Assembly (NCBI GenBank): GCA_043822305.1
Contig: JBDRBU010000083.1
Span: forward strand, 1-21,892
Reading direction: 5' to 3'
DNA: 21,892 nucleotides
DNA from: Candidatus Firestoneibacteriota bacterium
Lineage (GTDB): Bacteria > Oederibacteriota > D2-FULL-39-29 > JBDRBU01
Shown here: piece by piece, positions 281 to 21,379 of the stretch
Layout: every line of letters starts with the position of its first letter
How positions within the stretch are numbered: the stretch's first letter is position 1
Made by a program: the position numbers and the translations under genes
Notes under the pieces: generated by a model
What the model was told of the DNA's origin: nothing
The model's database searches: none
What the model saw: the letters and a program-made list of their open reading frames with translations, nothing else

Positions 281-754
281 TCAGTCACAAATAACTACTG
301 AACCATCAGGGCCGTTGTATGTAAAATGCCAATGCAAGAGAATATCACGCCCAATCAGACAATCAAAATTTTTAAGAGGACAAGAAACAATCGGGATCTC
401 TTTGCCATTACCCCAAGGGAATATGATAAAACCATAATAAACAGGTTGCTGTTGTTCATCTTGAACTGAAGAAACTTTTTGAAAACCTGTGTGAACAAGT
501 CCAAGTTGATCAGCCACACGAGGTGTTATTACAGTACCACTTGCCCCTGTATCAATTAAGGCATTTACGCTAACTGTTGGAGCACTTTTCCCCTGTTGTT
601 TAAAATTTTCTTGAACAATCCGAGGATGAGTAATGGTAACTTTGATAAAAGCCCCCATTTGATTTAAAATGACTGGCGGTGGAATCTGGACTATTAATTC
701 TTTACCATCTTTCTCCACTTTACTCTGACCACCATACCTGTATGTATTTATCAT
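281..754 (-). CDS. Retropepsin-like (clan AA) aspartyl protease
   Basis: Catalytic motif ALIDTGAS and C-terminal LIGRDIL. Start moved from 787 to ATG 754, which has GGAGGA 6 nt upstream. Confidence 0.85.
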   Translation of the reverse strand: MINTYRYGGQSKVEKDGKELIVQIPPPVILNQMGAFIKVTITHPRIVQENFKQQGKSAPTVSVNALIDTGASGTVITPRVADQLGLVHTGFQKVSSVQDEQQQPVYYGFIIFPWGNGKEIPIVSCPLKNFDCLIGRDILLHWHFTYNGPDGSVVICD

Positions 755-778
755 AGCACATCCTCCATAATGAATCTC

Positions 779-798
779 CCCCACCATAAATGGCGGGG
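779..798. repeat. GC-rich palindrome flanked by ATCT direct repeats
   Basis: CCCCACCAT-AA-ATGGCGGGG (one mismatch). ATCT at 774-777 and 800-803. Confidence 0.8.
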
Positions 799-842
799 TA
801 TCTTCTCTGCAAGGAAAATATATTATTTATGGTGCCAATTCA

Positions 843-865
843 CCCTGTACCAATATGGTGCAGGG
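843..865. repeat. GC-rich palindrome flanked by TTCA direct repeats
   Basis: TTCA-CCCTGTACCA-ATA-TGGTGCAGGG-TTCA (839-869). The arms resemble the intragenic element in moeA and tupA. Confidence 0.8.
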
Positions 866-870
866 TTCAT

Positions 871-890
871 CCCTGTCTCAAGAGACGGGG
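871..890. repeat. GC-rich palindrome overlapping the stop codon of the 878..1129 gene
   Basis: CCCTGTCTC-AA-GAGACGGGG (one mismatch). On the minus strand it encodes the last residues (PVS) and the stop. Confidence 0.75.
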
Positions 891-1129
891 TATTTCTGAC
901 ACTCCCAGATAAAGTTTAGTGGTTCTTTTTCAACTAAATGATAAACGAGAAAGTTTGCATCTAACCCATATAAACGCACTCCTTCTTCTGCTGCTCGTTC
1001 ATAACTATCATAAGAATCCACTAGTTTTTCCTCAAATACAAGAATGAATTTGTCCTTATGCTCCTTGAGTAAGGATTCTTTGTTTTTATTAACGAAATCA
1101 AGATTTTTCTTCAAATTTTTTTCTCCCAT
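878..1129 (-). CDS. Small hypothetical protein of the type found upstream of clan AA aspartyl proteases (DUF5678-like)
   Basis: 83-aa ORF with KHKDKFILVF..VDSYDSYERA..EG pattern. ATG at 1129 has AGGAGG 8 nt upstream. Confidence 0.65.
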   Translation of the reverse strand: MGEKNLKKNLDFVNKNKESLLKEHKDKFILVFEEKLVDSYDSYERAAEEGVRLYGLDANFLVYHLVEKEPLNFIWECQKYPVS

Positions 1130-1212
1130 GTTTTCCACCTCCTATTTTCTCTCTATTTCAGTTGATCAAAAACTTATTTTATTTCTTTAATGTTTAAAAA
1201 AGTTTATCTTGT

Positions 1213-4892: not shown

Positions 4893-5636
4893 CTACATTC
4901 CCCTGGCCAATGTAAAGACTCTTATTTGACTTGCTCCATCACCAAGTAGCATCGAACTACATTCATCTGCTGTAGCGCCTGTTGTTAATATATCATCAAC
5001 AAGTAAAACGCAAGCCCATTTAATTTTTCCCGGATTTCTAATTTCAAAAACTCCTTTAACATTCAAGAATCTATCTTCTTTACTTAATTTATGCTGTGGA
5101 ATAGTTTCTTTTACTCTAATTAAAACATCCGTAAATAAAGGAATTTTAAAATAATCTGCTAAACACTTAGATAATAACTCTGCCTGATTATAGTCCCTTC
5201 CACTTTGTTTTTTCTTATACATAGGAACCGGTATTATACAATCTATGTCATCTACTCCACAATTTTCTTTTATAAACTCTACCATTAATTCACCAAAATG
5301 TTTTGCCAATACTCTACATCCTTTATATTTTAATAAATGTATACCTTCTTTTAAAACACCTTCGTAAATTCCAACTGATCTATTATCAACAAAAGAAAAC
5401 CTCTGTCTTGTGCAATCCGCACAAAAATTTTCATCAGACGAAGTCAACTGTTTACCACAGTAAACACACATTGGATGTTTAATTATTTTTATCTTACCCC
5501 AGCAACCACCACATATAGATCCTTTTCTATCTTTATCTAACTTATCACTACAAATTTTGCAATTTGCAGGAAAAATAATATCTAATATCCCTATTATGAT
5601 ATTTTTTACTTTTTCCACTTTTCCCACTTTCCCCAC
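4893..5636 (-). CDS. comF: ComF family protein (double zinc ribbon plus phosphoribosyltransferase domain)
   Basis: Four CxxC pairs, LKY, IIPVP, R.YNQAELL, LLVDDILTTGAT..EC and terminal VFTLAR. Start ambiguous because several in-frame GTGs lie in a repeat. Confidence 0.92.
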   Translation of the reverse strand: MGKVGKVEKVKNIIIGILDIIFPANCKICSDKLDKDRKGSICGGCWGKIKIIKHPMCVYCGKQLTSSDENFCADCTRQRFSFVDNRSVGIYEGVLKEGIHLLKYKGCRVLAKHFGELMVEFIKENCGVDDIDCIIPVPMYKKKQSGRDYNQAELLSKCLADYFKIPLFTDVLIRVKETIPQHKLSKEDRFLNVKGVFEIRNPGKIKWACVLLVDDILTTGATADECSSMLLGDGASQIRVFTLARGM

Positions 5637-5647
5637 TTATTTTACTA
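5603..5647. repeat. Degenerate 9-bp tandem array (5 units) spanning the sprA-like stop and the comF start
   Basis: tttttactt tttccactt ttcccactt tccccactt attttacta. Encodes the MGKVGKVEKVK N-terminus of ComF. Confidence 0.75.
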
Positions 5648-8600
5648 GAATATTGCATTTACTTTTAAACTAATTCCGTAAGCATAATAATTATTAACAT
5701 TAGATACATAATCATTAAGATAACTAAATTGAAATCCTAAATCTGCTCTGATATTTCTTGAAAAATTATACTCCACTGAGGTTGAAATTGTATAAAGGTC
5801 CGTTTTAATTTCACTGCCTATAGTAGCCCCACTTGTTTTATTCCTAACCATATTTAAGTTAAACCTACTGTTTAATCTTACAGCTTGCTCAATTTTTATA
5901 ATTGCACCTCCAAATGGCCAAAAGTCTGGAAGTTTAATCGGGTCATTAAAATTAAGATTTAAACTAAGGTCAACTCCAGGAGTATAACTTATGTTATTGT
6001 ATTTAATATTGTTCTCTTCCCTGTCTTCTATATTTGCAATAAATAACAACGAACCATTGAAAGCATCCGAAACACGAAATGGACATGTAAAATTTCCAGT
6101 ATGTGTGAAAGAATTAGATGTAATTTTATCACTTGCATCTATTCTTTTTATGTTTTTATAGTCATATTCTATATTCATACTTGTTGGATTTAAAAGAGAA
6201 AGTATTGGTATTGGCGGTGAATCAATAATTACTCCACTCCCAACAGAGTTAACATTTGTTTTGGTTAAGAATTGCAACTGTCTGTTACTCTCATTGCTTA
6301 TACTACCTCTCGGATTAAATGTAATGGGTCCTAATTTAAACCTACCATTACCAGTATCACTAACTACTTGAGAGCTATTTAAAGCAAATTTTTCCGATGG
6401 GACTATCCACCACTCATCCCAAAAGGTTAAATTTTTTATTGGGAAGTTCTCACCTGCACCATCATAATTATTATAAAAAGCATTTGCAGAAACTCTATGA
6501 CTTAAATTCAGAGTTGGTGAAAAAGATTCCAAAAACCCCAACCATTCAGAAAGTCGGAATTCTGAACCTGCCTCTATTGAACTACTTGTTCTTAACTGAT
6601 TTACATTATAATCTCTATCAACAGCACCATTGTAGTTTGCCCTTGGTGTAAGCCCTTTAATCTTTGAATATGAAGAAGAAAGTCCAGCGCTTCTTGAATA
6701 TGTCTGAGGTGAAAAATCATCTACAAAAGGGAAAGTGCCAGAAGGTAATGAAATATTATAAGCATATATATTACCTTTCTTATCTAAAAACTTCATAGTG
6801 TAAAAAGGAGAAGTTGTTAAGCCCGATAAAAACTCATAACTTCCCATCCATTTATAGTAATTCTCACGAGAAATAATATAAGTATTCCTATCTAAATACA
6901 AAGAATGATTGATTTTGTCTTCTGAAAATCCAAACGATGCTTCAAAATTATTCGTCCCTAACGGAATACCAAATATATTTGAAGGCAGGGCATATGTTGC
7001 CTTAGAAGAAGCATTATAAGATTTTGTATATGTATTATCATTTAATAAAACATTAGGCAAATATTGCATATTTTCTAATTTATAGTTGCCATTTAAAGAT
7101 ATATTTAAAGGTGAAAGTAATGTAAAATTTAAAGTAGAATTGTAATTATCTGAAAATCTTTCCGGGTACGACAAATAGTTAGGATTTGACTTGTCTTTAT
7201 CATCTGTAAGGGTTTCATCTTTCCTATAATTAAATGTTAGTGGTAAAAAATTAACAGGTGTTAATGAAGAAGATACTGTAGTATATTTTGTAGTTTGTTT
7301 TATACTTTGATATGTTTGTGCTACTGATAAATTTGTATTAACACTCGCGTCTTCAAACATGTTAAATGTGCTGGCTATGTTTTTATAATCACCAGAGATA
7401 GAAAAGAAATCTCCATATCTCACTGAACCATTTAATCGTGATGCAATGCCTTCTTTCATTATAGAATCCGATACTCTTAAATTATTAACCCATATTTCCC
7501 CTCCTGTATTAGTACTTATAACTCCAATGCTCACTTGTTTTACATTGTTTAAATAAAAACTACCTACTTTTGAAGTTGGTGGACTACCTAACGAGAATGT
7601 CACTGTTTGCCATCCTGATGAAATCGTAGATAAATCTAAATTATATTGATAGTAATTTGTATCATCGCTTCCTACCCGAATAAAAAATATATCACCAGAA
7701 AATGTTGTCCTCTTATATATATCACATTTTAAGTAATTATAATCTAAATAACTTTGTGCCCTTGTGAATAGTTTACAAATATAAGGAATAGTAACTGATG
7801 AAGAAGCAGTATTATTATAAGTAATACTTAAAGACATCTCGCGATTTTTCTCTGTCTCAGTATCAGCCTTAAAAAAGCCATCTGTTAATGGCTCGTAAAC
7901 GCTATCAAGGTCCTTATTTATTGTTTTAACATCCAAATTAGATGCTAATAAAGGATATTTAAGTTCCCATTTATTACCTGTAAATTGAACAGATTCTACT
8001 ACCATAGAACCAGTCTGTGATGAAATATTTTTTAACCATAATCGGACATGTTTTATTAATGTAGGTGTTGGAGAACCATTTTTATCTGTTGTTGTTGTAA
8101 AATTCAAAGGTATCTTTATTAACTTCCATGAACCAATAGTATTTGAGATATAGGCAGGAGGGATATTATTCAAATCAAATTCATACCTGTAGTAATCATT
8201 ATTAGTAAAATCAAGTCTTCCATTATTATCCATATCCTCTTTATCTAATCTATTATTATTTTGTCCCACATTTGAAATACTTCCGGCAAATTTAACTGGT
8301 ATACCCGTATCTTCGCCTGTATTCAATAAATTATCATTATTCTTATCTTCTGTATCTAATAAACCATTTCCATTTATGTCTTCAGATATCACGCCAATAT
8401 CCAAATTAAAAGTAGTACTACTTGTCCAATCAGCGTTCATCCATATTTCTAAATACTTATATCTACTATAATCAGAACCAATAGTAGAAACTGGATACCT
8501 CATTCCATCCCATCTTCCATTTGTAAAATCGCAATCTATCTTTAATAATTGTTTCTTGGTAACAACACTCGTATCATGACCATAATCATCATAATTAGAT

Positions 8601-10702
8601 AAAGATAATTGATTTGCTCTATTATCAATATTTAAATCTGTATCAGTAGTAGAAGCCGGCATGCTTGAAGGAAACCAAGTATTACAATCAACCGGTAATC
8701 CAGAGATATTATCTGCTCCTTCCATACTATCAATCATACCTACACCTTTTTCTCCATTACTTGATTCATAAATATTCGGATTATAAAAACTTTTTGCAAT
8801 TTCTCCGGAAAAACTAATTTCTGTCGGTAAAAATATACTACTTCCCAGGACACTCTCAATCATACCTTTATTAATATTAACTTTACCATCAACATCAACT
8901 ACATTTAAGCTGGAAGGTGTAGAACCAATAGTAGGAACATCTAGAGGAGTTTGACTTCCAGTGAAAAGATAGGTTGAACCAATTGATAATGGAGATAAAT
9001 TAATATCTGCTCTTACACCAAATAAATTACTTTGAAATCCACCACCAAAAGGCATATATTCATATGTTGCCGTGATTTGTGTTTTATCAGTTATCTTATC
9101 CTCATTAAAAAAGAAAATAAAACCAGACTCATAATCTATAGTATAATCAACATCTCTTACTAAATTCCTTCCATCCATAACAATAACCTCGCTATACTTT
9201 ACAATGTTAAAATTAGGTAATTGATATGTTTTAAATTTATATTTATATTCTATATGCATTCTGTATCTGCTTTGAGTAGTAGAAGCAGTATCTGGATAAG
9301 CATTTGGACTTATTAAAATATTACTGTCATCATAAGCAAATGGTTTCTCTGGAGTTGGAGAAGTATTTTTTGTAATTTTTAAAAGACCACTATCAACATC
9401 TATACCATATGTATAATTTGTTATTGATTTTTCAGTATTATTAGCATCGTAAATTTTAAAAATAAATTCTGGGTCATACTGTGGTAAAAGTATTTTTTTA
9501 TTACCCAGATTATAGAAATTCATTAACTGATTACTATAATAAGTGGGACTATTGATCATAGGTTGAATTGGATTTAAATTAGCTTCATTAAAATCAAAAG
9601 TATTACCAGAATATCCAACCGAACTTGCTCCATTATTATACTTATAAGCAACAAAAAGGACATAATTTGACTGAATACTCTTATTAAATATAATCACACC
9701 GCTATTATAATCAATAGTATAATCTATTCCAGGATGAAGATAATCTAATGAATATGTACCAGTATCGGTTTTTTGCGTATATTGGGTTACATCAGTACCT
9801 CTATTTGGTGGATAACCAGGTGGATAGTTATTATTGTAACCATTCATATCATCCAACCATATTTGTTCACTATTAGTATCAATAGGTAAACAAGAAGTAT
9901 TTGATGTTATATTATAATATTTATATTTAACAAAATTTGTATCGTATATATCTGTTTTTACCTGAGTATAACCACCAACAAATGTAACTGTTTTAGTTTT
10001 ACCTTTTGTTTGAGCACCTATTGCCTTTAAACTAATATTTTTATATTTCATCTCTATTTCTCCGCCAAAAATCTTTTTGTTATATCCAGTGAATTCTGTA
10101 TTAGGTAAAGATAAAGAAACATCACCAAATTCCGCCTTCTGAACAAGTTCTTCACCTTCACCTTTATATATAAGTGAAATATCTCTTTGCTGTTCTTTTG
10201 TATCATCGTAATCTACATTTACCGTGATTCTTTTGCCCACAGTTCCAGAGAGTCTAACTTGAAGTTCCTGGAGTAAAGTAAAACCGCTTGTTATTCCAGC
10301 AGGAGTACTACCACCAATAGCAGGAACACCAGAAGGTGGATTGGTTTTTATAACATTACCATAACTCATTGATACAGATTTTCTTCCAGAAATTTCCAAT
10401 TTTGATTCCAATGGAAGATCTACACCAATATGGCCAATGGCTTCTGGTAAAGTTTCCTTCACTGTAACATCTACACCTCCCTCAAGGAAAACAAACTTTT
10501 CAAAAGCGATACCATAAAACGTTCTCTTTAGATTTTTTATTAAATACAAGTCATCATACTCGTAATTTAACTCTGAAACTATCTCCTCAAAAATAACATC
10601 TTCGCCTAAAAGAACACCAATTAGATTGAAATCAAAGTCCTCACCATTAATAGCATTAATACTTATCAGAAAAATTATTAATATACTTAATCCTTTCAAC
10701 AT
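5645..10702 (-). CDS. sprA: Large outer-membrane protein, SprA/Sov (T9SS translocon)-like
   Basis: SprA-type segments QELQVRLSGTVGKRITVNVDYD, YKGEGEELVQKAEFGDVSLSLP, LVRDVDYTIDYESG, LDIGVISED..N..LDTED and GEIWVNNLRV. Many amphipathic beta-strands and a terminal Phe. Signal peptide from ATG 10702 (MLKGLSILIIFLISINAING). Confidence 0.78.
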   Translation of the reverse strand: MLKGLSILIIFLISINAINGEDFDFNLIGVLLGEDVIFEEIVSELNYEYDDLYLIKNLKRTFYGIAFEKFVFLEGGVDVTVKETLPEAIGHIGVDLPLESKLEISGRKSVSMSYGNVIKTNPPSGVPAIGGSTPAGITSGFTLLQELQVRLSGTVGKRITVNVDYDDTKEQQRDISLIYKGEGEELVQKAEFGDVSLSLPNTEFTGYNKKIFGGEIEMKYKNISLKAIGAQTKGKTKTVTFVGGYTQVKTDIYDTNFVKYKYYNITSNTSCLPIDTNSEQIWLDDMNGYNNNYPPGYPPNRGTDVTQYTQKTDTGTYSLDYLHPGIDYTIDYNSGVIIFNKSIQSNYVLFVAYKYNNGASSVGYSGNTFDFNEANLNPIQPMINSPTYYSNQLMNFYNLGNKKILLPQYDPEFIFKIYDANNTEKSITNYTYGIDVDSGLLKITKNTSPTPEKPFAYDDSNILISPNAYPDTASTTQSRYRMHIEYKYKFKTYQLPNFNIVKYSEVIVMDGRNLVRDVDYTIDYESGFIFFFNEDKITDKTQITATYEYMPFGGGFQSNLFGVRADINLSPLSIGSTYLFTGSQTPLDVPTIGSTPSSLNVVDVDGKVNINKGMIESVLGSSIFLPTEISFSGEIAKSFYNPNIYESSNGEKGVGMIDSMEGADNISGLPVDCNTWFPSSMPASTTDTDLNIDNRANQLSLSNYDDYGHDTSVVTKKQLLKIDCDFTNGRWDGMRYPVSTIGSDYSRYKYLEIWMNADWTSSTTFNLDIGVISEDINGNGLLDTEDKNNDNLLNTGEDTGIPVKFAGSISNVGQNNNRLDKEDMDNNGRLDFTNNDYYRYEFDLNNIPPAYISNTIGSWKLIKIPLNFTTTTDKNGSPTPTLIKHVRLWLKNISSQTGSMVVESVQFTGNKWELKYPLLASNLDVKTINKDLDSVYEPLTDGFFKADTETEKNREMSLSITYNNTASSSVTIPYICKLFTRAQSYLDYNYLKCDIYKRTTFSGDIFFIRVGSDDTNYYQYNLDLSTISSGWQTVTFSLGSPPTSKVGSFYLNNVKQVSIGVISTNTGGEIWVNNLRVSDSIMKEGIASRLNGSVRYGDFFSISGDYKNIASTFNMFEDASVNTNLSVAQTYQSIKQTTKYTTVSSSLTPVNFLPLTFNYRKDETLTDDKDKSNPNYLSYPERFSDNYNSTLNFTLLSPLNISLNGNYKLENMQYLPNVLLNDNTYTKSYNASSKATYALPSNIFGIPLGTNNFEASFGFSEDKINHSLYLDRNTYIISRENYYKWMGSYEFLSGLTTSPFYTMKFLDKKGNIYAYNISLPSGTFPFVDDFSPQTYSRSAGLSSSYSKIKGLTPRANYNGAVDRDYNVNQLRTSSSIEAGSEFRLSEWLGFLESFSPTLNLSHRVSANAFYNNYDGAGENFPIKNLTFWDEWWIVPSEKFALNSSQVVSDTGNGRFKLGPITFNPRGSISNESNRQLQFLTKTNVNSVGSGVIIDSPPIPILSLLNPTSMNIEYDYKNIKRIDASDKITSNSFTHTGNFTCPFRVSDAFNGSLLFIANIEDREENNIKYNNISYTPGVDLSLNLNFNDPIKLPDFWPFGGAIIKIEQAVRLNSRFNLNMVRNKTSGATIGSEIKTDLYTISTSVEYNFSRNIRADLGFQFSYLNDYVSNVNNYYAYGISLKVNAIF

Positions 10703-10709
10703 AATATGA

Positions 10710-10738
10710 ATTTTACCATAATTTTTATATTCTATCAA
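10710..10738 (-). promoter_or_regulatory. Sigma70-type promoter for the sprA-like gene
   Basis: TTGATA-17 bp-TAAAAT with TG extension, 7 nt before ATG 10702. Confidence 0.55.
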
Positions 10739-10751
10739 TAAAATAAAATGG

Positions 10752-10781
10752 TTGATAGTCGTAGTTGAATTATTATATAAT
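10752..10781 (+). promoter_or_regulatory. Sigma70-type promoter for lptFG
   Basis: TTGATA-18 bp-TATAAT. Confidence 0.5.
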
Positions 10782-10821
10782 GTAGATGTCCAATTTATTA
10801 GGCACCATTAAAGTTAAATCA

Positions 10822-11946
10822 ATGAAAATAATTCATAAATACATAATAAAAGAAATTCTCGGACCTTTATTTTTAGGATTCTTTTTATTTACGTTTATAT
10901 TTTTAATAGATAAGATGGCTGAACTTGTGGATTTAATTATAAATAAAGGTGTAAGTTTAACAAACACCATTAAACTACTTATCTATATAATGCCTGCTTT
11001 TATTGCCATAACAGTACCTATGGGAATACTCATAGCAGTATTAATTGCATTTAGCAGATTAAATTCGGACAACGAAATAATGGCTATGAAAACAAATGGA
11101 TTAAATATAAAATCTATAGTTATGCCTGTTATTATCTTCGGTTTAATCTTAAGTATAGTAATGGTAACTTTTAATAACTACATTTTACCTCGAAGTAATA
11201 TGGCTTTTAAAAACTTATATTTCAATGTCCTAAAAGAAAGAGCCTCTATTGTCCTCCAGGAAAAATTATTTATAGATGAGTTTAATGACTTCATATTTTA
11301 TATAGAAGAAAAAGAGAATGAAACTGATAAATTAAAAAATATTACAATATATTCTTCAGAAAAAACCAATGAATCTCCTTATATTGTAGTAGCGAAATAT
11401 GGTTATTTATTGTCAGATCCAAATGAAAAAAGGGTTATACTAAAATTATATGATGGAACATTACACCAGATAAATTATCATAACCCATTAGTTTACAATA
11501 AAATAAAATTTAATACTTATGATTTGGATTTGGATTTAAAAAATGTATTAAGACAACATGATGTAACAGAAAATATTAAAACTGCAAGAGAAATGAACTT
11601 TAAAGAGTTAGGCGAAGAAATTAAAAAATATTTTAAAAATGGTATAAACACAAATTATCTTAAGATTGAATACCACAAGAAAATTGCAATTCCTTTTGCA
11701 TGTTTTGCCTTTACCTTCGTCGGAATTTCAATAGGAACTGCTTTAAGGACCAAGGGTAAATCAATGAGTTTTTTAATCAGTATTTTTATTATTCTTGTAT
11801 ATTATTTTCTTTTGATTTTTGGTGAAATATTAGCCGAAAAAGGAAAGATAACTCCATGGTTAGGTATGTGGTTACCTAATTTCGTCATAGGTATAATCGG
11901 AATAATATTACTATACTTTACAACTAAAGAAAAAATAAATATATGA
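10822..11946 (+). CDS. lptF: LPS export ABC transporter permease LptF
   Basis: MKIIHKYIIKEILGPLF, SRLNSDNEIMAMKTNG, IEYHKKIAIPFACF and GMWLPN. 3+3 TM layout. ATG 10822 preferred over 10786. Confidence 0.9.
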   Translation: MKIIHKYIIKEILGPLFLGFFLFTFIFLIDKMAELVDLIINKGVSLTNTIKLLIYIMPAFIAITVPMGILIAVLIAFSRLNSDNEIMAMKTNGLNIKSIVMPVIIFGLILSIVMVTFNNYILPRSNMAFKNLYFNVLKERASIVLQEKLFIDEFNDFIFYIEEKENETDKLKNITIYSSEKTNESPYIVVAKYGYLLSDPNEKRVILKLYDGTLHQINYHNPLVYNKIKFNTYDLDLDLKNVLRQHDVTENIKTAREMNFKELGEEIKKYFKNGINTNYLKIEYHKKIAIPFACFAFTFVGISIGTALRTKGKSMSFLISIFIILVYYFLLIFGEILAEKGKITPWLGMWLPNFVIGIIGIILLYFTTKEKINI

Positions 11947-13028
11947 AAAGTCCAAAAATTTTATATTGGTATATATCATCAGAATTTATTAAAACATTTT
12001 TATTATCGTTAATATCACTAACTATTATAGTTCTTGTTACAGAATTCTTTGATGAGATTAAAGGTTTATTGGAATGCAACCCAGCCATTTTAAGTATTAT
12101 TAAATATTTTTTTTATAAAATTCCTTATACGGCACTAAAAGCCACTCCATTTGCTGCATTAATTGCAACTTTGTTTTCCTTGCACAATTTTGCAAGAAAC
12201 AACGAAACCATAGCCATGCAAGCTAATGGTCTTAGCTTGTTTAAAATAATATTGCCGTTTCTTGTAATATCATTTATTTTAAGTTTAATAGTTATAGTCA
12301 TAAACGAAACTTTAGCAGCAAATATGTATTCAAAATCTACCCTTATAAAATACAAAGATATATTTAAGACAGAAATTTCTTATTCTGCTACTAAAAATAA
12401 TTTATCTTTTAAATCTAAAGAAGGCTGGATAGCATATATTAAATTATTTAATGGGGAACGCAACTTTATGAGGGATGTAACCATAATATTTTTTGATAAA
12501 GAAAATAACCTTTTAAAAAGAATAGATGCTAAAGAAGGTATATGGAATGGTAAAAATTGGGATTTCAAAAATTGTTATATGCGAGAATTTCTAAGTACAC
12601 CACATAGAGAAGTTGTTACTACATTCTCATCAATTACATTACCTATAACAGAAAAACCGGAAGATTTTGTAAAAAAAAGAAAAAAAATAGAAGAATTTAC
12701 TATAAAAGAACTTTCTAATGAAATAAATAAATTAAAAACCAATGGTGCAAAATACAACGAAGAATCAGTAAATCTACATTTTAAAATATCCTACGCCTTT
12801 TCAACCTTTATACTTACTCTATTAGGAATACCTTTTGGAGTAAAAACTGGTAAACACAGGAGTGTAATTCTTAGTTTCTTCCTAAGTTTTTTTATAGGAT
12901 TTCTTTACTGGCAGTTACTCGTTGTAGGATATTCCCTGGGTAAATATGAATCTTTGCCACCCATAATAGCTTCCTGGTTAGGAAATATTGTGTTTACTGT
13001 TATTGGAACGGTTATGCTGTTTATTTAA
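11943..13028 (+). CDS. lptG: LPS export ABC transporter permease LptG
   Basis: RNNETIAMQANGLSL, IDAKEG.W....W, HFKISYAF, LGIPFG and LPPIIASWLGN. ATGA overlap with lptF. Confidence 0.9.
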   Translation: MKSPKILYWYISSEFIKTFLLSLISLTIIVLVTEFFDEIKGLLECNPAILSIIKYFFYKIPYTALKATPFAALIATLFSLHNFARNNETIAMQANGLSLFKIILPFLVISFILSLIVIVINETLAANMYSKSTLIKYKDIFKTEISYSATKNNLSFKSKEGWIAYIKLFNGERNFMRDVTIIFFDKENNLLKRIDAKEGIWNGKNWDFKNCYMREFLSTPHREVVTTFSSITLPITEKPEDFVKKRKKIEEFTIKELSNEINKLKTNGAKYNEESVNLHFKISYAFSTFILTLLGIPFGVKTGKHRSVILSFFLSFFIGFLYWQLLVVGYSLGKYESLPPIIASWLGNIVFTVIGTVMLFI

Positions 13029-13048
13029 AGGGGACAGCGACCTTTATT
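13027..13048 (+). repeat. AAAGGGGWCAG-type short repeat, copy 1
   Basis: AAAGGGGACAGCGACCTTTATT, 17/22 identical to the reverse complement of 14062-14083. Confidence 0.55.
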
Positions 13049-13065
13049 ATCACTGATCAGGCGGG

Positions 13066-14049
13066 TTATTTTATTTCTTCTTCTGTGCTTGTCTTAGATA
13101 ATTCTTTAAAAACATCTCTTATGGTAAGGGAAAATTTATGCGTACCAGCTGTTCCACTTGCGAAACCTAATGGGAATAAAAACCCGTAATCAAATTCACC
13201 ACCAATATTGATATAAGGAATGTTAAATTTATATCCTAAACCAACTGTGAAATTCATATAATTATCCGAACCTGCTCCACCTCCAATGCGAAAAGAAAGA
13301 ATTCCAAAATTACCTGTTTTAGTACTATTATCTTCTACGCCCAGATGAACTTTAACTCTATTATTTCTATAAAATACTTCGGTAGTTACTAAATCATATT
13401 TACCAACATTATATCTAACTCCACTTCTTACAACCATTGGTAATCTTTCTTCTAAAATACCAACATCTGGTTGATTGATATCATCAATAAACAAACCAAA
13501 TGATAAATCTTTAATTGTAGATGTGAACAAAGAAAGTCCAAATGAAAAATTAGATTTATTTAAACCAGTAAAGTACGGATTTATAGACACCCATTCATTA
13601 CTAACATAATTTCTAATCAAATATTTAAAATTAATTCCAAACGATGCATCTTTTATAGGATAAGCATAAGCAAGGTAAAAAACAGTTTCATTATATAAAG
13701 ACTCATTAAAATTATACCAGCCAACTCCAACACTACCGTATTCCTTAAATGGCACACCAACACATATAAAACTTTCAGACAGGTTTGAAATACCCCAATA
13801 TAACTTACTATAAGAAGAAAGAACTTCCCATGATTTTAAATTACCCAAGCCAGCAGGGTTTGCATATATTGAATTTACATCATCGGCTACGGCAACAAAA
13901 GAGTTTCCCATGCCTAATACTCTTGCCGATGGACTCATAATATTAAAAGCACCATAAGAATTAGTGATAAAGATTAAGAACAAAGCAACAAATGACAGAT
14001 GATAAAAAACAATTTTCAATTTGTTCTTATTCTTCATTCCTTTTTTCAT
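13066..14049 (-). CDS. Outer-membrane beta-barrel of PorV/PorQ or PorP/SprF type
   Basis: Signal peptide followed by SARVLGMGNSFVAVADDVNSIYANPAGLG, then alternating beta-strands, DINQPD..LP...R.G and a late THKFSL strand. Confidence 0.75.
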   Translation of the reverse strand: MKKGMKNKNKLKIVFYHLSFVALFLIFITNSYGAFNIMSPSARVLGMGNSFVAVADDVNSIYANPAGLGNLKSWEVLSSYSKLYWGISNLSESFICVGVPFKEYGSVGVGWYNFNESLYNETVFYLAYAYPIKDASFGINFKYLIRNYVSNEWVSINPYFTGLNKSNFSFGLSLFTSTIKDLSFGLFIDDINQPDVGILEERLPMVVRSGVRYNVGKYDLVTTEVFYRNNRVKVHLGVEDNSTKTGNFGILSFRIGGGAGSDNYMNFTVGLGYKFNIPYINIGGEFDYGFLFPLGFASGTAGTHKFSLTIRDVFKELSKTSTEEEIK

Positions 14050-14061
14050 TGTTTTACCTCT

Positions 14062-14083
14062 AAAAAATGACTCTGACCCCTTT
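14062..14083 (-). repeat. AAAGGGGWCAG-type short repeat, copy 2
   Basis: Minus strand AAAGGGGTCAGAGTCATTTTTT, directly at the stop codon of the upstream gene. Confidence 0.55.
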
Positions 14084-16350
14084 TATTTTGCTACAACTAA
14101 TGTTCCTTTGCCTGCTGAACTTCCTCCTACTTTTATTTCGTAGATATAAACTCCGCTTTCTACAACCCTTCCTTGTTCATCTTTTCCATCCCATTCAAAA
14201 GAACTTATACCATCAGTATTATTAATTTCTTTCATAAGTGTTCCAGTGATATCCCATATTTTAAAACTTACTGTTTCATTATTAGCATTTGGAAAACTAA
14301 TTTTTACTTTATTAAAAGTAGAATTACAACTTAATGGTGTAAACGGATTTGGTTCACAATTTACCGATATGTTAGTAGGAGAACCAATAATTATACCAAA
14401 TTTTGAAAGATGTAAAGTTTTCGTTGATACATATATATTATTACCATTTACAGTAACATTTGAAGATAAAGGAACCCAATGCAATCCGTTCCAGAAAGCT
14501 ATGGTTAACTGGGTTTTTGCATTGGAAAGCAAGACAGAATTATTTGTACTATTAACATATGTACCATCACCCGACTGCCAGTGAATAGTAACTGTAAGTG
14601 CTTTATTAAATTTTTCAATAATTTCATTTGTATCAAAATTTTTTGCTGTTATATCATATGCAACTATTACATTTGTAGGAGATATCAAAGAAGTTGGTGG
14701 ATTATTATCATTTATTAAACTATATTGAGTATTAACATTTGTCGTTTCTGGCAAAACTGTAATTTTTGTTTCTGTGTCACTTAATGAAGTAACATCTCCG
14801 GCTAAATTTGCTGGAATGATTGACTGGTCACAAGTCGTGTAATTAACTGTTAATAAATTTTTTATTTTTGGTGTCTTCCATGTTCCCGTTAATTCTGCTT
14901 TCCATCTTAAATCACTAGCGGTATAAGTAATAGTACTTTCTACTCCATTTGAAAACTCCTTCCAGTTTGTCCCGGCATTAGCAGTTAAATAATACTTTAA
15001 AGTCTGTCCATTAAGTTCTTCGGTAGCAGTAAGTGTTGCTTTATATATCCTTTCCGCAGTGCTACTTATTTTTTTTGAAACTATGGATACAGGAGTTGCC
15101 CCATTATATATACCATCAGCACGATTTATTTTTGCAGTATTTCCACCAAATAATAAATATGTACCATTCCATCCAATAGATTTTATTGTATTAGTCCCCC
15201 AGGAAGCATCTAACATAGTTTGTGGAGGACCAGTAGGACCATCACCTAACCCTATAAAGTTACTATCTGCAATTCCTGCTCCATCATACTTTACAAATTT
15301 ACCTCCACTACCAACAATATACCAATCATAACCATTCCATACCATAGAATAAACAGTGTTTCCACCAAAGTTCCCACCTGCTGATGTCGTAAGTGCTGTC
15401 AATGAAGTAGCTACTGTCCCATCGTATTTTGTTAGTTTCCCATCTGCACCACCAACTAACCAGTAAGAATTATTCCAGGCTATAGAATAGATTTGACTTG
15501 TGCCAAAACTAAAATCAGTAGTTAAATTTGTCCAACTTGTTCCATCATATTTTCTCATCTGCCCATTTGCACCACCTATTAGCCAATACGAACCATTCCA
15601 GCCAATTGATGAAATTGCATATCCTGTTGAGTGAGTTCCATCTGTTATAAAAGTAGCTGCGGTTGATAAATCTGTACATGGTGCAATTGTAACTCCATCC
15701 CATCTATTTAACTTACCATTATCTCCGCCAATTAACCAGTAACTTCCATTATACATAAGTATATTAATTGAATCCGGAACACTATCATGATCAGGAGGAG
15801 GACTAGGATGATCTACTAAATGAGAATAATTTGTAAGAACAGAAGTAGCGATGGTATATGTAGAAAAATCATATTTATTTAATTTTGGCCCACAATAATA
15901 ACCTCCACCACCAATCAAATAATAAGAACCTCCCCAGAGTAAAGAATTTATATTAGCATTCCCAAAATCATAAATTGTACCAGATAAATCAGTAAAAGAA
16001 CTTCCATTATAAGAAACTATTCTTGGATGGTATGTTATTGTATCTATATCATAATAATAATCCCCTCCAATAAGCCATTTAGTAATACTATATCCCAATG
16101 TATTAATATTACTTGTTCCAAAATAATTAGTTATAGTTGCACCGCTAACTGAAAGGTCAGTAAAAGAAGATATATATGGCAATTTTGCAAAATGATTTGT
16201 TGTATCAAGCATTGTAGTAGAACTGGTGGCAGAAGTATCTATATTAGTCCAACTACTAAAATCTTCTGAAAATGAAAAATTTTCAGAATACAATAAACAT
16301 GGAAAGAAAAACAATATAATAGTACTAATAATTAAAAACTGCTTTCTCAT
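14083..16350 (-). CDS. Secreted beta-propeller protein with C-terminal FlgD-Ig / T9SS-CTD-like domain
   Basis: Signal peptide MRKQFLIISTIILFFFPCLLYS. Seven I..I.WNGSYWLIGG..GK..KYDG repeats. C-terminal EPNPFTP...IWDITGTLMKEI...WDGKDEQGRVVESGVYIY...GTLVVAK. Confidence 0.8.
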   Translation of the reverse strand: MRKQFLIISTIILFFFPCLLYSENFSFSEDFSSWTNIDTSATSSTTMLDTTNHFAKLPYISSFTDLSVSGATITNYFGTSNINTLGYSITKWLIGGDYYYDIDTITYHPRIVSYNGSSFTDLSGTIYDFGNANINSLLWGGSYYLIGGGGYYCGPKLNKYDFSTYTIATSVLTNYSHLVDHPSPPPDHDSVPDSINILMYNGSYWLIGGDNGKLNRWDGVTIAPCTDLSTAATFITDGTHSTGYAISSIGWNGSYWLIGGANGQMRKYDGTSWTNLTTDFSFGTSQIYSIAWNNSYWLVGGADGKLTKYDGTVATSLTALTTSAGGNFGGNTVYSMVWNGYDWYIVGSGGKFVKYDGAGIADSNFIGLGDGPTGPPQTMLDASWGTNTIKSIGWNGTYLLFGGNTAKINRADGIYNGATPVSIVSKKISSTAERIYKATLTATEELNGQTLKYYLTANAGTNWKEFSNGVESTITYTASDLRWKAELTGTWKTPKIKNLLTVNYTTCDQSIIPANLAGDVTSLSDTETKITVLPETTNVNTQYSLINDNNPPTSLISPTNVIVAYDITAKNFDTNEIIEKFNKALTVTIHWQSGDGTYVNSTNNSVLLSNAKTQLTIAFWNGLHWVPLSSNVTVNGNNIYVSTKTLHLSKFGIIIGSPTNISVNCEPNPFTPLSCNSTFNKVKISFPNANNETVSFKIWDITGTLMKEINNTDGISSFEWDGKDEQGRVVESGVYIYEIKVGGSSAGKGTLVVAK

Positions 16351-16368
16351 ATTTTTAACCTTTAAAAA

Positions 16369-16528
16369 TTTGTAAATATTCACTGAACCCCATCACCATA
16401 CATTTAAACTTTGGAGTGCAAAATCGGTAATTTTGCATTTGCAACAACATCGTTGTTACACTCCATAAAATCATTAAAATTGCTTCAATCTCCATTCACA
16501 ATGATGATGTTCAGTAAGGATTTACAAA
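16369..16528. mobile_element. MITE-like non-coding element with 27-bp imperfect terminal inverted repeats
   Basis: TTTGTAAATATTCACTGAACCCCATCA (16369-16395) versus reverse complement of 16502-16528, TTTGTAAATCCTTACTGAACATCATCA: 22/27 identical. Confidence 0.5.
16412..16465. repeat. REPIN-like inverted doublet of GGAG-footed REP hairpins
   Basis: TGGAGTG...CACTCCA closes two hairpins, TGCAAAAT-CGGTA-ATTTTGCA and AACAAC-ATC-GTTGTT. Confidence 0.6.
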
Positions 16529-16559
16529 AATTTCCCCCGCCACTATTCATGACGGGGGA
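16524..16559 (-). terminator. GC-rich hairpin with T-rich tail (second terminator candidate, or palindromic repeat)
   Basis: Minus strand TCCCCCGTCA-TGAATAG-TGGCGGGGGA followed by AATTTTTGT. Confidence 0.5.
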
Positions 16560-18727: not shown

Positions 18728-19956
18728 GACTTTAATAATATATTTACATAATCAAATAATTCAACATCAACAAGACTACCACCCCTGACAAATGAAGTTT
18801 CTTCCGGCAGCATTAAATATCCATCGGCTAAAACCATTGAGATTAAAATACCCGACCCTTGTGGCCCTGTAATTTCTGCTGTCCATCCATCTTTTCCTTT
18901 GCTTACCCACGCACCACCAGAGGGTGCGGGGTTTACTTTTACTCTGACAAACTCTCTCCGGCCTGTTTTTTTTCTATAATCGTTTTTAAAATTTGCTTTC
19001 ACAATTCTTTTCTTGTATGTCTTTCCCATCATTTTATATAAAGCTGGTTTCACAAACTGGTCAAAAGTTACCATAGCTGAAACAGGATTTCCCGGAAGAC
19101 CAAAAATTGCTTTTTGTTTTATTTTTCCAAAAACAAGTGGCTTACCTGGTTTTATAGCCACTCTCCAGATATCAAGACTACCTTTTAATTTAGTTATTAC
19201 ATCTTTAACAAAATCATACTCACCGACTGAAACCCCTCCAGAAGTTATTAAACAATCGTACTTTAACGCCAGTTTGATTTTTTCTTTTAAATCGTTTTCC
19301 GTGTCCTTGGCAATTCCCAGAAGTACGGGAATTGCTCCACAGAGTTCAACTAAAGAATAAAGTGAATAACTATTAGAATTTCTAACTTTTCCTTCTTTTA
19401 GAACTTTATTAATATCAATTATTTCATCGCCCGTAGCCAGTATAGCCACTTCTGGCCTTTTAATAACACTGACTTTAGAAATCCCCAGAGAAGCAAGTAT
19501 CCCTATATCTGGCGGTGTTAAAACTTTTCCAGATTTGATGATTAACTCCCCTGCTTTTACACTTTCTCCTAGAAATCTAATATTTTCACCTTTTTCTACT
19601 TTTCTAAAAACCTTGATGGTTTGACTATCAACAACTTCTGTATCTTCAAGCATGACCACAGCCTCAGCTCCTGCTGGAATTTTCAAACCAGTTCGTATCT
19701 TGACTGTCGTCCGCCTTGCAGAAATTCCATCAACTACATTTAATATAACCGGATTAGTTTTAGAAGCATTATATGTATCATCTGCACGAACAGCATATCC
19801 GTCCATGGCTGAATTATCAAAGTGTGGTATATCTTCAGAAGAATAAATATTTTCTGATATAACTAAACCGGATGTTTTTAAAATAGGCATCTTAAAAGCA
19901 GGTAAAACTTCTACCGAGTTCAATATTTCCAATAAAGCTTCTTCGTATTTTAACAT
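18724..19956 (-). CDS. moeA: Molybdopterin molybdotransferase MoeA
   Basis: P.FDNSAMDGYAVR, ATGDEI, RNSNSY, ITSGGVSVGEYDFV, IKPGKP, FGLPGNPVS and QGSG. Confidence 0.95.
   Translation of the reverse strand: MLKYEEALLEILNSVEVLPAFKMPILKTSGLVISENIYSSEDIPHFDNSAMDGYAVRADDTYNASKTNPVILNVVDGISARRTTVKIRTGLKIPAGAEAVVMLEDTEVVDSQTIKVFRKVEKGENIRFLGESVKAGELIIKSGKVLTPPDIGILASLGISKVSVIKRPEVAILATGDEIIDINKVLKEGKVRNSNSYSLYSLVELCGAIPVLLGIAKDTENDLKEKIKLALKYDCLITSGGVSVGEYDFVKDVITKLKGSLDIWRVAIKPGKPLVFGKIKQKAIFGLPGNPVSAMVTFDQFVKPALYKMMGKTYKKRIVKANFKNDYRKKTGRREFVRVKVNPAPSGGAWVSKGKDGWTAEITGPQGSGILISMVLADGYLMLPEETSFVRGGSLVDVELFDYVNILLKS
18907..18936 (-). repeat. Intragenic palindromic element in moeA
   Basis: Minus strand GTAA-ACCCCGCACCCTCTGGTGGTGCGTGG, followed by a second GTAA. 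The 27 bp at 18910-18936 are the exact reverse complement of 21293-21319. Confidence 0.9.
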
Positions 19957-20632: not shown

Positions 20633-21379
20633 ATGCTAAAGTTTATATTTTACTTATTTCTTTTATTCTTCCCTTTAAACATATATTCAAAAGATTTAAA
20701 TACAATAATTCTGGCCACAACAACAAGCGTTTATGATACCGGACTTCTTGATGTCATCCTACTTGTCTTTGAAAAAAAAACTGGACTTAAAGTAAAAGCA
20801 ATTGCCATTGGAACCGGACAAGCATTAAGCATGGCCGCCAGAGGTGAAGTGGATATATTACTCACGCATTCTCCAGAAGAAGAAAAAAAGTTCATAAATC
20901 AAGGTTATGGAATAAACAGAAAATTAGTTATGCATAATTACTTTATTCTAGCCGGGCCAGAAAGTGATCCAGCAAATCTTAAACAGGCAACAACCATTAG
21001 CGCTGCCTTAAAAAGAATAGCGGAAACTAAAGCCAATTTTGTTTCGAGAGGAGATAACTCAGGCACACATATTAAAGAAAAATATTTATGGGAAAAAGCT
21101 GAAATAGTCCCTGATAAAAAGTGGTATATTGAGTCCGGGACTGGAATGGCCACGACATTACAGATTGCCAACCAGAAAAATGCTTACTTGTTATCAGATA
21201 TTTCAACATTTCTTGCTTTAGAAAAAAATCTATCTCTTAAAATTTTATTTAAGAATGATAAAGACTTGTTAAATAAATATCATATCATGGAGGTAAACCC
21301 CGCACCCTCTGGTGGTGCGAAATTTAAAGATGTTAATCATGAAGGTGCAAAAGCTTTTTCAAATTTTTTCCTCTCATAG
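20633..21379 (+). CDS. tupA: Tungstate ABC transporter substrate-binding protein, C-terminally truncated
   Basis: LATTTS.YDTGLLD, GTGQAL, D.LL.HSP, MHNYF, FVSRGDNSGTH.KE, GMA.TL..A and LLN.YH..EVNP. Ends abruptly at FFLS-stop where an ATPase frame begins. Confidence 0.88.
   Translation: MLKFIFYLFLLFFPLNIYSKDLNTIILATTTSVYDTGLLDVILLVFEKKTGLKVKAIAIGTGQALSMAARGEVDILLTHSPEEEKKFINQGYGINRKLVMHNYFILAGPESDPANLKQATTISAALKRIAETKANFVSRGDNSGTHIKEKYLWEKAEIVPDKKWYIESGTGMATTLQIANQKNAYLLSDISTFLALEKNLSLKILFKNDKDLLNKYHIMEVNPAPSGGAKFKDVNHEGAKAFSNFFLS
21293..21319 (+). repeat. Intragenic palindromic element in tupA
   Basis: GTAAACCCCGCACCCTCTGGTGGTGCG, identical to the moeA copy and read in the same frame (VNPAPSGGA). 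Confidence 0.9.

What the first reader, a model, noticed from the sequence alone, without database searches (positions are those of the whole stretch)
5645..16350. Clustered, compact type IX secretion-like module (SprA-like translocon, PorV/PorP-like barrel, CTD cargo) wrapped around lptFG
Seen: within ~10.7 kb lie a ~1685-aa SprA/Sov-motif barrel, a PorV/PorQ/PorP-type barrel and a secreted protein ending in a FlgD-Ig/T9SS-CTD-like domain. lptFG is transcribed divergently from the sprA-like gene. Established: the T9SS is characterised in Bacteroidota, where SprA (~2400 aa) works with PorV and CTD-tagged cargo, is powered by GldKLMN, and some cargo is anchored to LPS. Inference: the host does not look like a Bacteroidota member, because it uses GGAGG Shine-Dalgarno sites and TTGACA/TATAAT promoters rather than the Bacteroidota TTTG/TAnnTTTG type. 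This may therefore be an uncharacterised, reduced T9SS-like export route in another diderm lineage, possibly linked to LPS transport. No gldKLMN is present in this window.
Basis: partly seen in the sequence, partly recalled or inferred. Interest (0 to 1): 0.82.

Follow-up and report, generated by a model that had tools for sequence, protein, structure and literature searches.

The report
Type IX secretion pore without motor
An uncultured groundwater-type bacterium outside the Bacteroidota has the giant outer-membrane pore, carrier barrels and tagged cargo of type IX protein secretion but no detectable copy of the motor that normally powers it, so it probably exports surface proteins with a different, still unknown energy link.

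Summary
The genes are real and as described. The 1685-1697 aa protein is a true SprA/Sov homologue: TIGR04189 E 2e-50; both AlphaFold halves match only SprA; I count 36 barrel strands. It is shorter in its loops, not in its barrel. The host sits with Ca. Firestonebacteria. The system is phylum-wide: SprA in 59/61 genomes and PorV-family barrels in 61/61. GldL, GldM, GldN and PorU were found in 0/61, though the Gld searches had no positive control. The window is not a self-contained module. Its cargo-barrel pair is one of 10 such cassettes among 17 barrels and 20 CTD proteins in the genome. lptFG is the genome's only, ordinary LPS permease; the link is old synteny (24/40 loci), with no functional evidence. 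A conserved operon (giant cargo-PorV-TPR-ExbB-ExbD-ExbD-TonB-TonB-box protein) is the best motor candidate, but its marker is in only 29/61 genomes. The scan noted that operon and a motorless T9SS before on other DNA. I found neither in print (10 searches). Verdict: new variant of T9SS, energy source open.

The parts
5645..10738 (-). SprA/Sov-type translocon; likely start 10702 (1685 aa); 36 predicted barrel strands (7 + 4 + 25) with two extracellular insert regions
   Evidence: TIGR04189 E 2e-50; AlphaFold halves; Foldseek top four hits all SprA, E 1e-33 to 1e-48, next best 5e-7; profile versus PDB hits only SprA, E 2e-62; single copy
10703..10821 (.). Divergent intergenic region between the likely sprA and lptF starts, with sigma-70-like sites on both strands (+10752-10781, 11/12; -10738-10710, 10/12)
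   Evidence: consensus matches only, not enriched over shuffles
10786..11946 (+). LptF, LPS export permease (likely start 10822); neighbour, not shown to be part of the system
   Evidence: TIGR04407 238 bits, over cut-off; only copy in genome
11943..13028 (+). LptG, LPS export permease; neighbour
   Evidence: TIGR04408 239.1 versus cut-off 240; only copy
13066..14049 (-). PorV/PorP-superfamily carrier barrel, a divergent subtype; no cysteine in the C-terminal tail
   Evidence: NF033709 51.7 bits; 7/7 family members hit PorV_fam and 3/7 hit PorP/SprF TIGR03519; only PDB hit of the profile is PorV, at E 0.1; sole Cys at residue 96
14083..16383 (-). Secreted cargo (likely start 16350): signal-like N-terminus, WD40-like repeats, adaptor domain, C-terminal sorting domain
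   Evidence: orthologues of 37-41% identity upstream of orthologous barrels in a sister family
14083..14376 (-). CTD sorting domain (residues about 670-766)
   Evidence: TIGR04183 and FlgD_ig at cut-off; own CTD profile E 7e-24, the protein being a seed
14404..14412 (-). H-L-S motif ending the domain just before the CTD; possible self-cleavage site (lead only)
   Evidence: no ZU5 or Nup98 match in Pfam or PDB
4893..5636 (-). comF, conserved directly downstream of sprA; neighbour
   Evidence: within three genes downstream in 20 of 40 loci

Best explanation
The window holds the pore gene and one cargo cassette of a lineage-wide, vertically inherited T9SS variant that keeps the outer-membrane half and lacks the Bacteroidota energy chain and sortase. 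Proposed steps. (1) Cargo crosses the inner membrane by Sec; signal-like N-termini are seen, transport is inferred. (2) The single 36-strand SprA receives it; homology and fold are shown, function is inferred. (3) The CTD binds a PorV-family barrel at the lateral gate, usually the barrel encoded right behind the cargo; gene pairing is shown, binding is inferred from F. johnsoniae. (4) With no PorU the CTD stays on and the barrel is the permanent surface anchor, as for Bacteroidota type B cargo with PorP/SprF; this explains 8 to 30 barrels per genome (inferred). (5) Release of the loaded carrier needs energy in Bacteroidota. Here I think it most likely comes from ExbB-ExbD-TonB-type proton motors acting through large periplasmic TPR proteins (inferred, about 45% for this step). 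lptFG is a conserved envelope-gene neighbour, perhaps co-regulated from the shared gap, not a subunit.
For: SprA identity. Range: SprA 59/61, PorV_fam 61/61 with 8-30 matches, capped by scoring. Tree: the phylum's SprAs form one clade (support 1.0) beside Elusimicrobiota-labelled ones and apart from Calditrichota, Gemmatimonadota, Latescibacterota and 2300-2400 aa forms (midpoint root). Pairing: 10 of 17 barrels have a CTD gene directly upstream versus 1.1% of all ORFs. Missing parts: GldM 0/61, GldL_N 0/61, GldN 0/61, PorU 0/61 over cut-off with nearly all hits in its CTD. Own FGE-domain proteins score 87-97 on GldK (cut-off 350) and higher on EgtB. The window barrel has no tail cysteine of the kind SprF uses to bond GldK. 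Motor link: PorV+FlgD-TPR-ExbB-ExbD-ExbD-TonB-u339 is complete in 15 of 20 fetched loci and split over C123 and C41 here. u339 carries a TonB-box-like stretch (label recalled). 0 of 20 long, generic metagenome ExbB loci carry PorV, CTD or u339 genes.
Against: No experiment exists. The Gld searches had no positive control (say so), so divergent motors could be missed. The PorU search scored at most 10 candidates per genome. The u339 marker is in only 29/61 genomes and 0/5 of the sister family whose synteny best matches the window. The 20 operon loci were chosen by best hit to the PorV tail, so 15/20 is not a prevalence. The 36-strand count joins two partial models (pTM 0.50 and 0.53) and I assigned the membrane strands with the SprA layout in mind. 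The window barrel is below the PorV_fam cut-off. Barrel-CTD similarity correlates by Pearson (r 0.60, p 0.0008) but not by Spearman (0.18, p 0.14); three reciprocal pairs drive it, which co-duplication alone explains.
Confidence: 0.7

Rival explanations
1. The PorV+FlgD-TPR-ExbB-ExbD-ExbD-TonB-u339 operon is a separate machine serving one giant surface protein: it extracts, moves or retracts it, in the manner of Myxococcus Agl-Glt. General secretion through SprA is unpowered or uses something else. This keeps steps 1-4 of the best explanation and replaces step 5.
For: u339 in 29/61 genomes versus SprA in 59/61. A large CTD gene (1783-1939 aa in 12, cut by the contig end in one) precedes the barrel in 13 of the 15 complete operons. 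Only 2 of 17 barrels here carry the FlgD handle. Substrate loading needs no energy in F. johnsoniae.
Against: Release does need energy in F. johnsoniae. A paralogous TPR-barrel-ExbB(-ExbD-TonB) operon is in 5 of 5 tested genomes that lack u339. It lies directly behind a PorV gene in one of them and before three CTD genes in another.
Confidence: 0.4
2. An ordinary complete T9SS whose GldKLMN and PorU are too divergent for the HMMs or missing from the assemblies.
For: No positive control rang for GldM, GldL_N or GldN. The Bacteroidota-built SprA model scores this protein below cut-off.
Against: 0 of 45 high-quality genomes, including near-closed ones, have them. Bacteroidota-built SprA, PorV and CTD models do ring here. 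The window barrel has no tail cysteine.
Confidence: 0.1
3. The cluster is functionally tied to LPS transport: cargo anchored to LPS, or SprA coupled to the Lpt bridge.
For: lptFG lies divergently upstream of sprA in 24 of 40 loci across classes, directly adjacent in 9. LpxB is present.
Against: Single-copy, canonical LptF/LptG. Absent from 15 of the 39 loci with upstream sequence. comF is similarly linked (20/40). No PorU to attach cargo to LPS. LptFG is an inner-membrane extractor with no known contact to an outer-membrane translocon (established knowledge, recalled).
Confidence: 0.07

Closest known systems
Bacteroidota type IX secretion system (F. johnsoniae SprA-PorV, PDB 6H3I, 6H3J, 8GL6, 8GL8)
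   Same: 36-strand SprA-type barrel, PorV-family carrier, Ig-like C-terminal sorting domain, two-step export.
   Different: SprA is about 700 aa shorter (1685 versus 2403). GldL, GldM, GldN and PorU not found, GldK far below cut-off. Host outside the Bacteroidota and FCB range that reviews give.
Type B CTD cargo with cognate PorP/SprF carriers
   Same: Cargo gene clustered with its own barrel; CTD probably uncleaved; barrel as anchor (PMC10202324 passages).
   Different: Here this is the default route. Barrels score mostly as PorV_fam and CTDs as FlgD_ig or type A. No Cys-x-Cys tail for the GldK track on the window barrel.
Ton/Tol/Agl proton motors (ExbB-ExbD-TonB; Myxococcus AglRQS-Glt)
   Same: One ExbB, two ExbD, a TonB and a large TPR protein in one operon; GldLM is structurally related to this motor class. 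The Agl-Glt layout is recalled, not tested.
   Different: The operon holds a PorV-family barrel with a periplasmic FlgD-Ig tail, a CTD giant protein and an Ig/OmpA-like TonB-box protein, not a TonB-dependent transporter or GltA/B/H.
SprA homologues already annotated in Calditrichota, Gemmatimonadota, Latescibacterota, Krumholzibacteriota
   Same: Non-Bacteroidota SprA of 1850-2100 aa.
   Different: They form a separate clade. The Firestonebacteria and Elusimicrobiota proteins carry no SprA annotation. I did not test those phyla for Gld motors.

Membership tests
Type IX secretion system | SprA/Sov 36-strand translocon | tested here: met
   strand count from two partial models
Type IX secretion system | PorV-family carrier barrel | tested here: met
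   13 of 17 genome matches over cut-off; the window's own copy is under cut-off
Type IX secretion system | Cargo with signal peptide and C-terminal sorting domain | tested here: met
   20 CTD-ended proteins; signal peptides read by eye
Type IX secretion system | GldL/GldM (PorL/PorM) motor | tested here: not met
   0/61 for TIGR03517 and PF22827; own genome 0 for TIGR03513; no positive control
Type IX secretion system | GldK/GldN (PorK/PorN) ring or track | tested here: not met
   GldN 0/61 (no positive control); GldK tested only on three of this genome's FGE-domain ORFs, 87-97 of 350 bits
Type IX secretion system | PorU sortase / attachment complex | tested here: not met
   0/61 over cut-off, at most 10 candidates scored per genome; one weak C25 fragment in own genome
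Type IX secretion system | SprE/PorW accessory | tested here: inconclusive
   Two TPR proteins score 153 and 114 on NF052312 (cut-off 250), as generic TPRs may
Type IX secretion system | Plug, PorG, PorZ, SkpA | not tested
   no search run for these
Type IX secretion system | Proton-gradient-dependent export of CTD cargo | not testable with these tools
   uncultured host
SprF-type track-coupled carrier | Cys-x-Cys in the periplasmic C-tail | tested here: not met
   window barrel has one Cys, at residue 96; criterion from PMC12635249
LptB2FG LPS extractor | LptF and LptG pair in a lipid A producer | tested here: met
   LptG 0.9 bit under cut-off; LptB, LptA and LptD not searched
Flagellar FlgD | Flagellar export apparatus in the genome | tested here: not met
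   FlhA family 0 in own genome, controls ring in 4; the FlgD_ig hits are sorting or Ig domains

The most novel reading that the evidence does not exclude
Outside the Bacteroidota there is a widespread and perhaps older form of type IX secretion. One SprA pore serves a library of cargo-specific carrier barrels and is energised by ExbB-ExbD-TonB motors pulling on TonB-box adaptors, so the GldLM rotary motor and GldKN track would be a later Bacteroidota addition. One branch of this system may also move a giant adhesin over the cell, as a T9SS/Agl-Glt hybrid.
Probability: 0.3. Interest if true: 0.9.

Novelty: new variant of a known kind. Interest (0 to 1): 0.68.

Why it matters
Reviews and the TXSScan survey place the T9SS only in Bacteroidota or the FCB group, with GldLM and GldKN as core parts. 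Structural work says energy is needed to pull the loaded carrier off SprA. A whole phylum with SprA, many carriers and cargo but no detectable Gld chain makes two questions testable: what the minimal translocon is, and whether another motor can do the release step. The phylum sample includes relatives labelled Goldbacteria, whose cellulases were described without an export route in the passages I read. A 1685-aa SprA is also a natural minimal version for structure and engineering.

Tried and rejected
Single-sequence phmmer of SprA against the PDB found nothing; the profile did. Complex prediction of the TonB C-domain with u339 returned no answer, which is no evidence either way. The carrier-CTD and SprA-carrier complexes were not folded: one job only, and SprA exceeds the size limit. 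A ZU5/Nup98-type self-cleaving domain before the CTD was suggested by an H-x-S motif (3 of 20 cargo versus 8 of 1371 other ORFs; 4 of 60 in other loci), but Pfam and PDB profiles gave no support. A metagenome scan with the operon's ExbB returned generic ExbB genes, used only as a control, so operon range outside the phylum was not tested by gene context. A search of plasmids for an SprA-bearing record, to serve as a Gld positive control, found none. A single-protein search for the 514-aa TonB-box barrel hit 31/61 and missed two genomes known to have the operon, so it under-counts. C27:14972-17761 was dropped from the CTD list: its hit is internal and it reads as a BamA-like protein. Recent transfer from Bacteroidota is not favoured by the tree (no clade test run). 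McBride and Zhu 2013 is not held. From recall it reports partial T9SS gene sets in some non-Bacteroidetes FCB genomes, which would lower novelty for motorless SprA within FCB.
Full report
OBSERVATION. The window is contig C83 of a 2.15 Mb, 31.6% GC genome in 125 contigs, 96.8% complete. All named genes are present with the stated orientation: sprA-like on the minus strand, lptF and lptG on the plus strand, and barrel and cargo on the minus strand, converging on lptG. HMM scores are in the observation check. A terminator-like hairpin at 16533-16559 separates the cargo from the pilin gene upstream.

HOST. The closest named SprA homologues are Ca. Firestonebacteria at 50-60% (all 11 loci). LptF is 52-55% identical to the six of those loci listed. 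Proteins of other families in the same phylum sample resemble records labelled Goldbacteria. Shine-Dalgarno use is strong. The host is not Bacteroidota.

THE LARGE PROTEIN IS SprA. TIGR04189 matches four stretches. I folded residues 95-1200 and 545-1697 with 44-row alignments (mean pLDDT 77 and 83, pTM 0.50 and 0.53). For both, the four best Foldseek hits are F. johnsoniae SprA at E 1e-33 to 1e-48, and the next is 5e-7 or weaker. A profile search of the PDB returns only SprA. From the secondary structure I read 7 membrane strands at residues 113-243, 4 at 570-653 and 25 at 1095-1695. That makes 36, the number reported for SprA. The count is my reading of two open models. The protein is about 700 residues shorter through loops and inserts. 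It is single-copy. A relative was found in 59 of 61 phylum genomes, and 417 library clusters match at E 1e-30 or better, many of 1550-1850 aa. Of 20 such clusters looked up, one is labelled Elusimicrobiota and one Latescibacterota; the rest have no phylum label. In a 54-sequence FastTree the phylum's SprAs are one clade with support 1.0. The neighbouring group holds the Elusimicrobiota-labelled proteins, and FCB-type proteins lie apart. This fits vertical descent; it is midpoint-rooted and untested.

NOT A COMPACT MODULE. The genome has 17 PorV-family matches, 13 over cut-off, and 20 proteins ending in a CTD by my profile at E below 1e-3 (seeds included). Ten of the 17 barrels have a CTD gene directly upstream on the same strand, against 1.1% of all ORFs. 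Cargo include an S8 protease, an M6 peptidase, Kelch, Fn3 and TIG proteins. The window pair is one cassette. Its nearest barrel and nearest CTD both lie in the C117 cassette, and orthologous cargo and barrel genes flank lptG in a sister family. All 61 genomes have 8 or more PorV-family genes. In 40 sprA loci of relatives, chosen from the 59 for contig length, lptFG is divergently upstream in 24 (adjacent in 9), comF downstream in 20, a CTD gene directly after sprA in 23, and a PorV-like gene anywhere in only 5. lptF and lptG are single-copy and LpxB is present, so they are the ordinary LPS permease.

WHAT IS MISSING. GldM, GldL_N and GldN were found in 0 of 61 genomes. None of the 14 control genomes rang, so these are 'not found', not 'absent'. 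PorU reached cut-off in 0 of 61, and nearly all listed hits cover only its CTD. Three FGE-domain ORFs of this genome score far under the GldK cut-off. In F. johnsoniae SprF bonds to GldK through tail cysteines (PMC12635249); the window barrel has no tail cysteine.

CANDIDATE ENERGY LINK. The genome has five MotA/ExbB genes. Two barrels carry a C-terminal FlgD-Ig tail and sit among motor genes: C123 has CTD-only protein, barrel, TPR, exbB; C41 has exbD, 2031-aa cargo, barrel, exbD, tonB, u339. I fetched 20 loci around the best matches to that tail. Fifteen have the full order barrel-TPR-ExbB-ExbD-ExbD-TonB-u339, 13 of them behind a large CTD gene. One is cut by its contig end, three hold half the set as here, and one has none. 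u339 reads as signal peptide, TonB-box-like stretch, Ig domain and degenerate OmpA-like domain. Its Atlas look-alikes are mostly Elusimicrobiota and WOR-3. Against a general role: u339 is in 29 of 61 genomes and 0 of 5 in the sister family. In five genomes without it I fetched 20 of 21 ExbB/MotA loci. All five have a paralogous TPR-barrel-ExbB operon, four with ExbD and TonB. In one it follows a PorV gene and in another it precedes three CTD genes. Among 80 generic metagenome ExbB loci, 0 of the 20 of at least 8 kb carried PorV, CTD or u339 genes. So motors of this class are tied to carriers by gene order, but which one, if any, serves SprA is open.

MECHANISM. Shown: homology, fold, gene pairing, distribution. 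Inferred from F. johnsoniae (PMC10994853): CTD binding to carrier loops in the pore and energy-dependent release. Inferred here: cargo keep their CTD and stay on a cognate barrel, as type B cargo do (PMC10202324), and a Ton-type motor replaces GldLM.

LITERATURE. Ten searches listed no paper whose title or abstract start describes a T9SS in Firestonebacteria, Goldbacteria or Elusimicrobiota, or a Ton-powered one; most listed papers were seen as listings only. I read matched passages only, in PMC7031533, PMC12204202, PMC8542988, PMC4793230, PMC10202324, PMC10994853, PMC11205867, PMC5445135 and PMC12635249. I opened no supplements; those of PMC4793230 and PMC7031533 could list partial T9SS hits. 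Subscription papers are not covered. NCBI already names SprA in several FCB phyla.

EARLIER SCAN NOTES. I found the motor operon, before reading them. One search shows eight earlier notes on PorV/CTD genes beside ExbB-ExbD-TonB motors in other genomes; one calls a Goldbacteria system motorless with a separate motor operon, and one judges the pairing unrelated in its genome. One search shows a pilus with a T9SS-type anchor elsewhere in this genome. None matched this SprA by sequence or the lptFG link by words. They are unchecked AI notes and add no evidence.

VERDICT. Real, not an artefact, and not a full member of the T9SS as defined: the motor, ring and sortase tests were not met. It very probably works like the outer-membrane half of one. 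New variant of a known kind; interest 0.68.

Noticed in passing
window 14380-14877 (-); also G000 C51 and C20 cargo: A domain ending in H-[FL]-S lies just before the CTD in 3 of 20 cargo (8 of 1371 in other ORFs), with look-alike domains lacking the motif in about four more. It recalls ZU5/Nup98 self-cleavage motifs (recalled) and could shed cargo without PorU. No HMM support.
   Followed up: partly
L052:9684-10031 (G000 C123): A 115-aa protein that is only a signal peptide plus CTD, directly before a PorV+FlgD barrel; it could cap an empty carrier.
   Followed up: no
L012-L040, gene after sprA: In 23 of 40 loci a large CTD protein follows sprA directly. These proteins cluster by similarity with the 200-450-residue N-terminal extensions that SprA has in other classes, which the window's SprA lacks.
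   Followed up: partly
L059:5698-7156 (G000 C110): A motA-motB pair in a genome with no FlhA family hit; also seen in other phylum genomes. Orphan stator of unknown use.
   Followed up: partly
L056:5069-11310 (G000 C68): Operon TPR (963 aa), 514-aa TonB-box-like barrel with a short N-terminus, ExbB, ExbD, TonB; present in all five other genomes checked.
   Followed up: partly
window about 18893-18945 (moeA) and 21284-21340 (tupA): A short GC-rich repeat is read in frame inside both genes as the same peptide; 22 copies of its 24-nt core in the genome, 7 in-frame peptide hits in 5 ORFs. Looks like a coding-region repeat element.
   Followed up: partly
L063:6996-8417, L067:5851-7287, L060:6536-8005: PorV-family barrels with other C-terminal tails: CsgG-like (Pfam hit for one, similar by eye for the second) and TPR.
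   Followed up: no
window 281-1138 (-): Small aspartic-protease gene with a DUF5678-like partner at the contig end.
   Followed up: no
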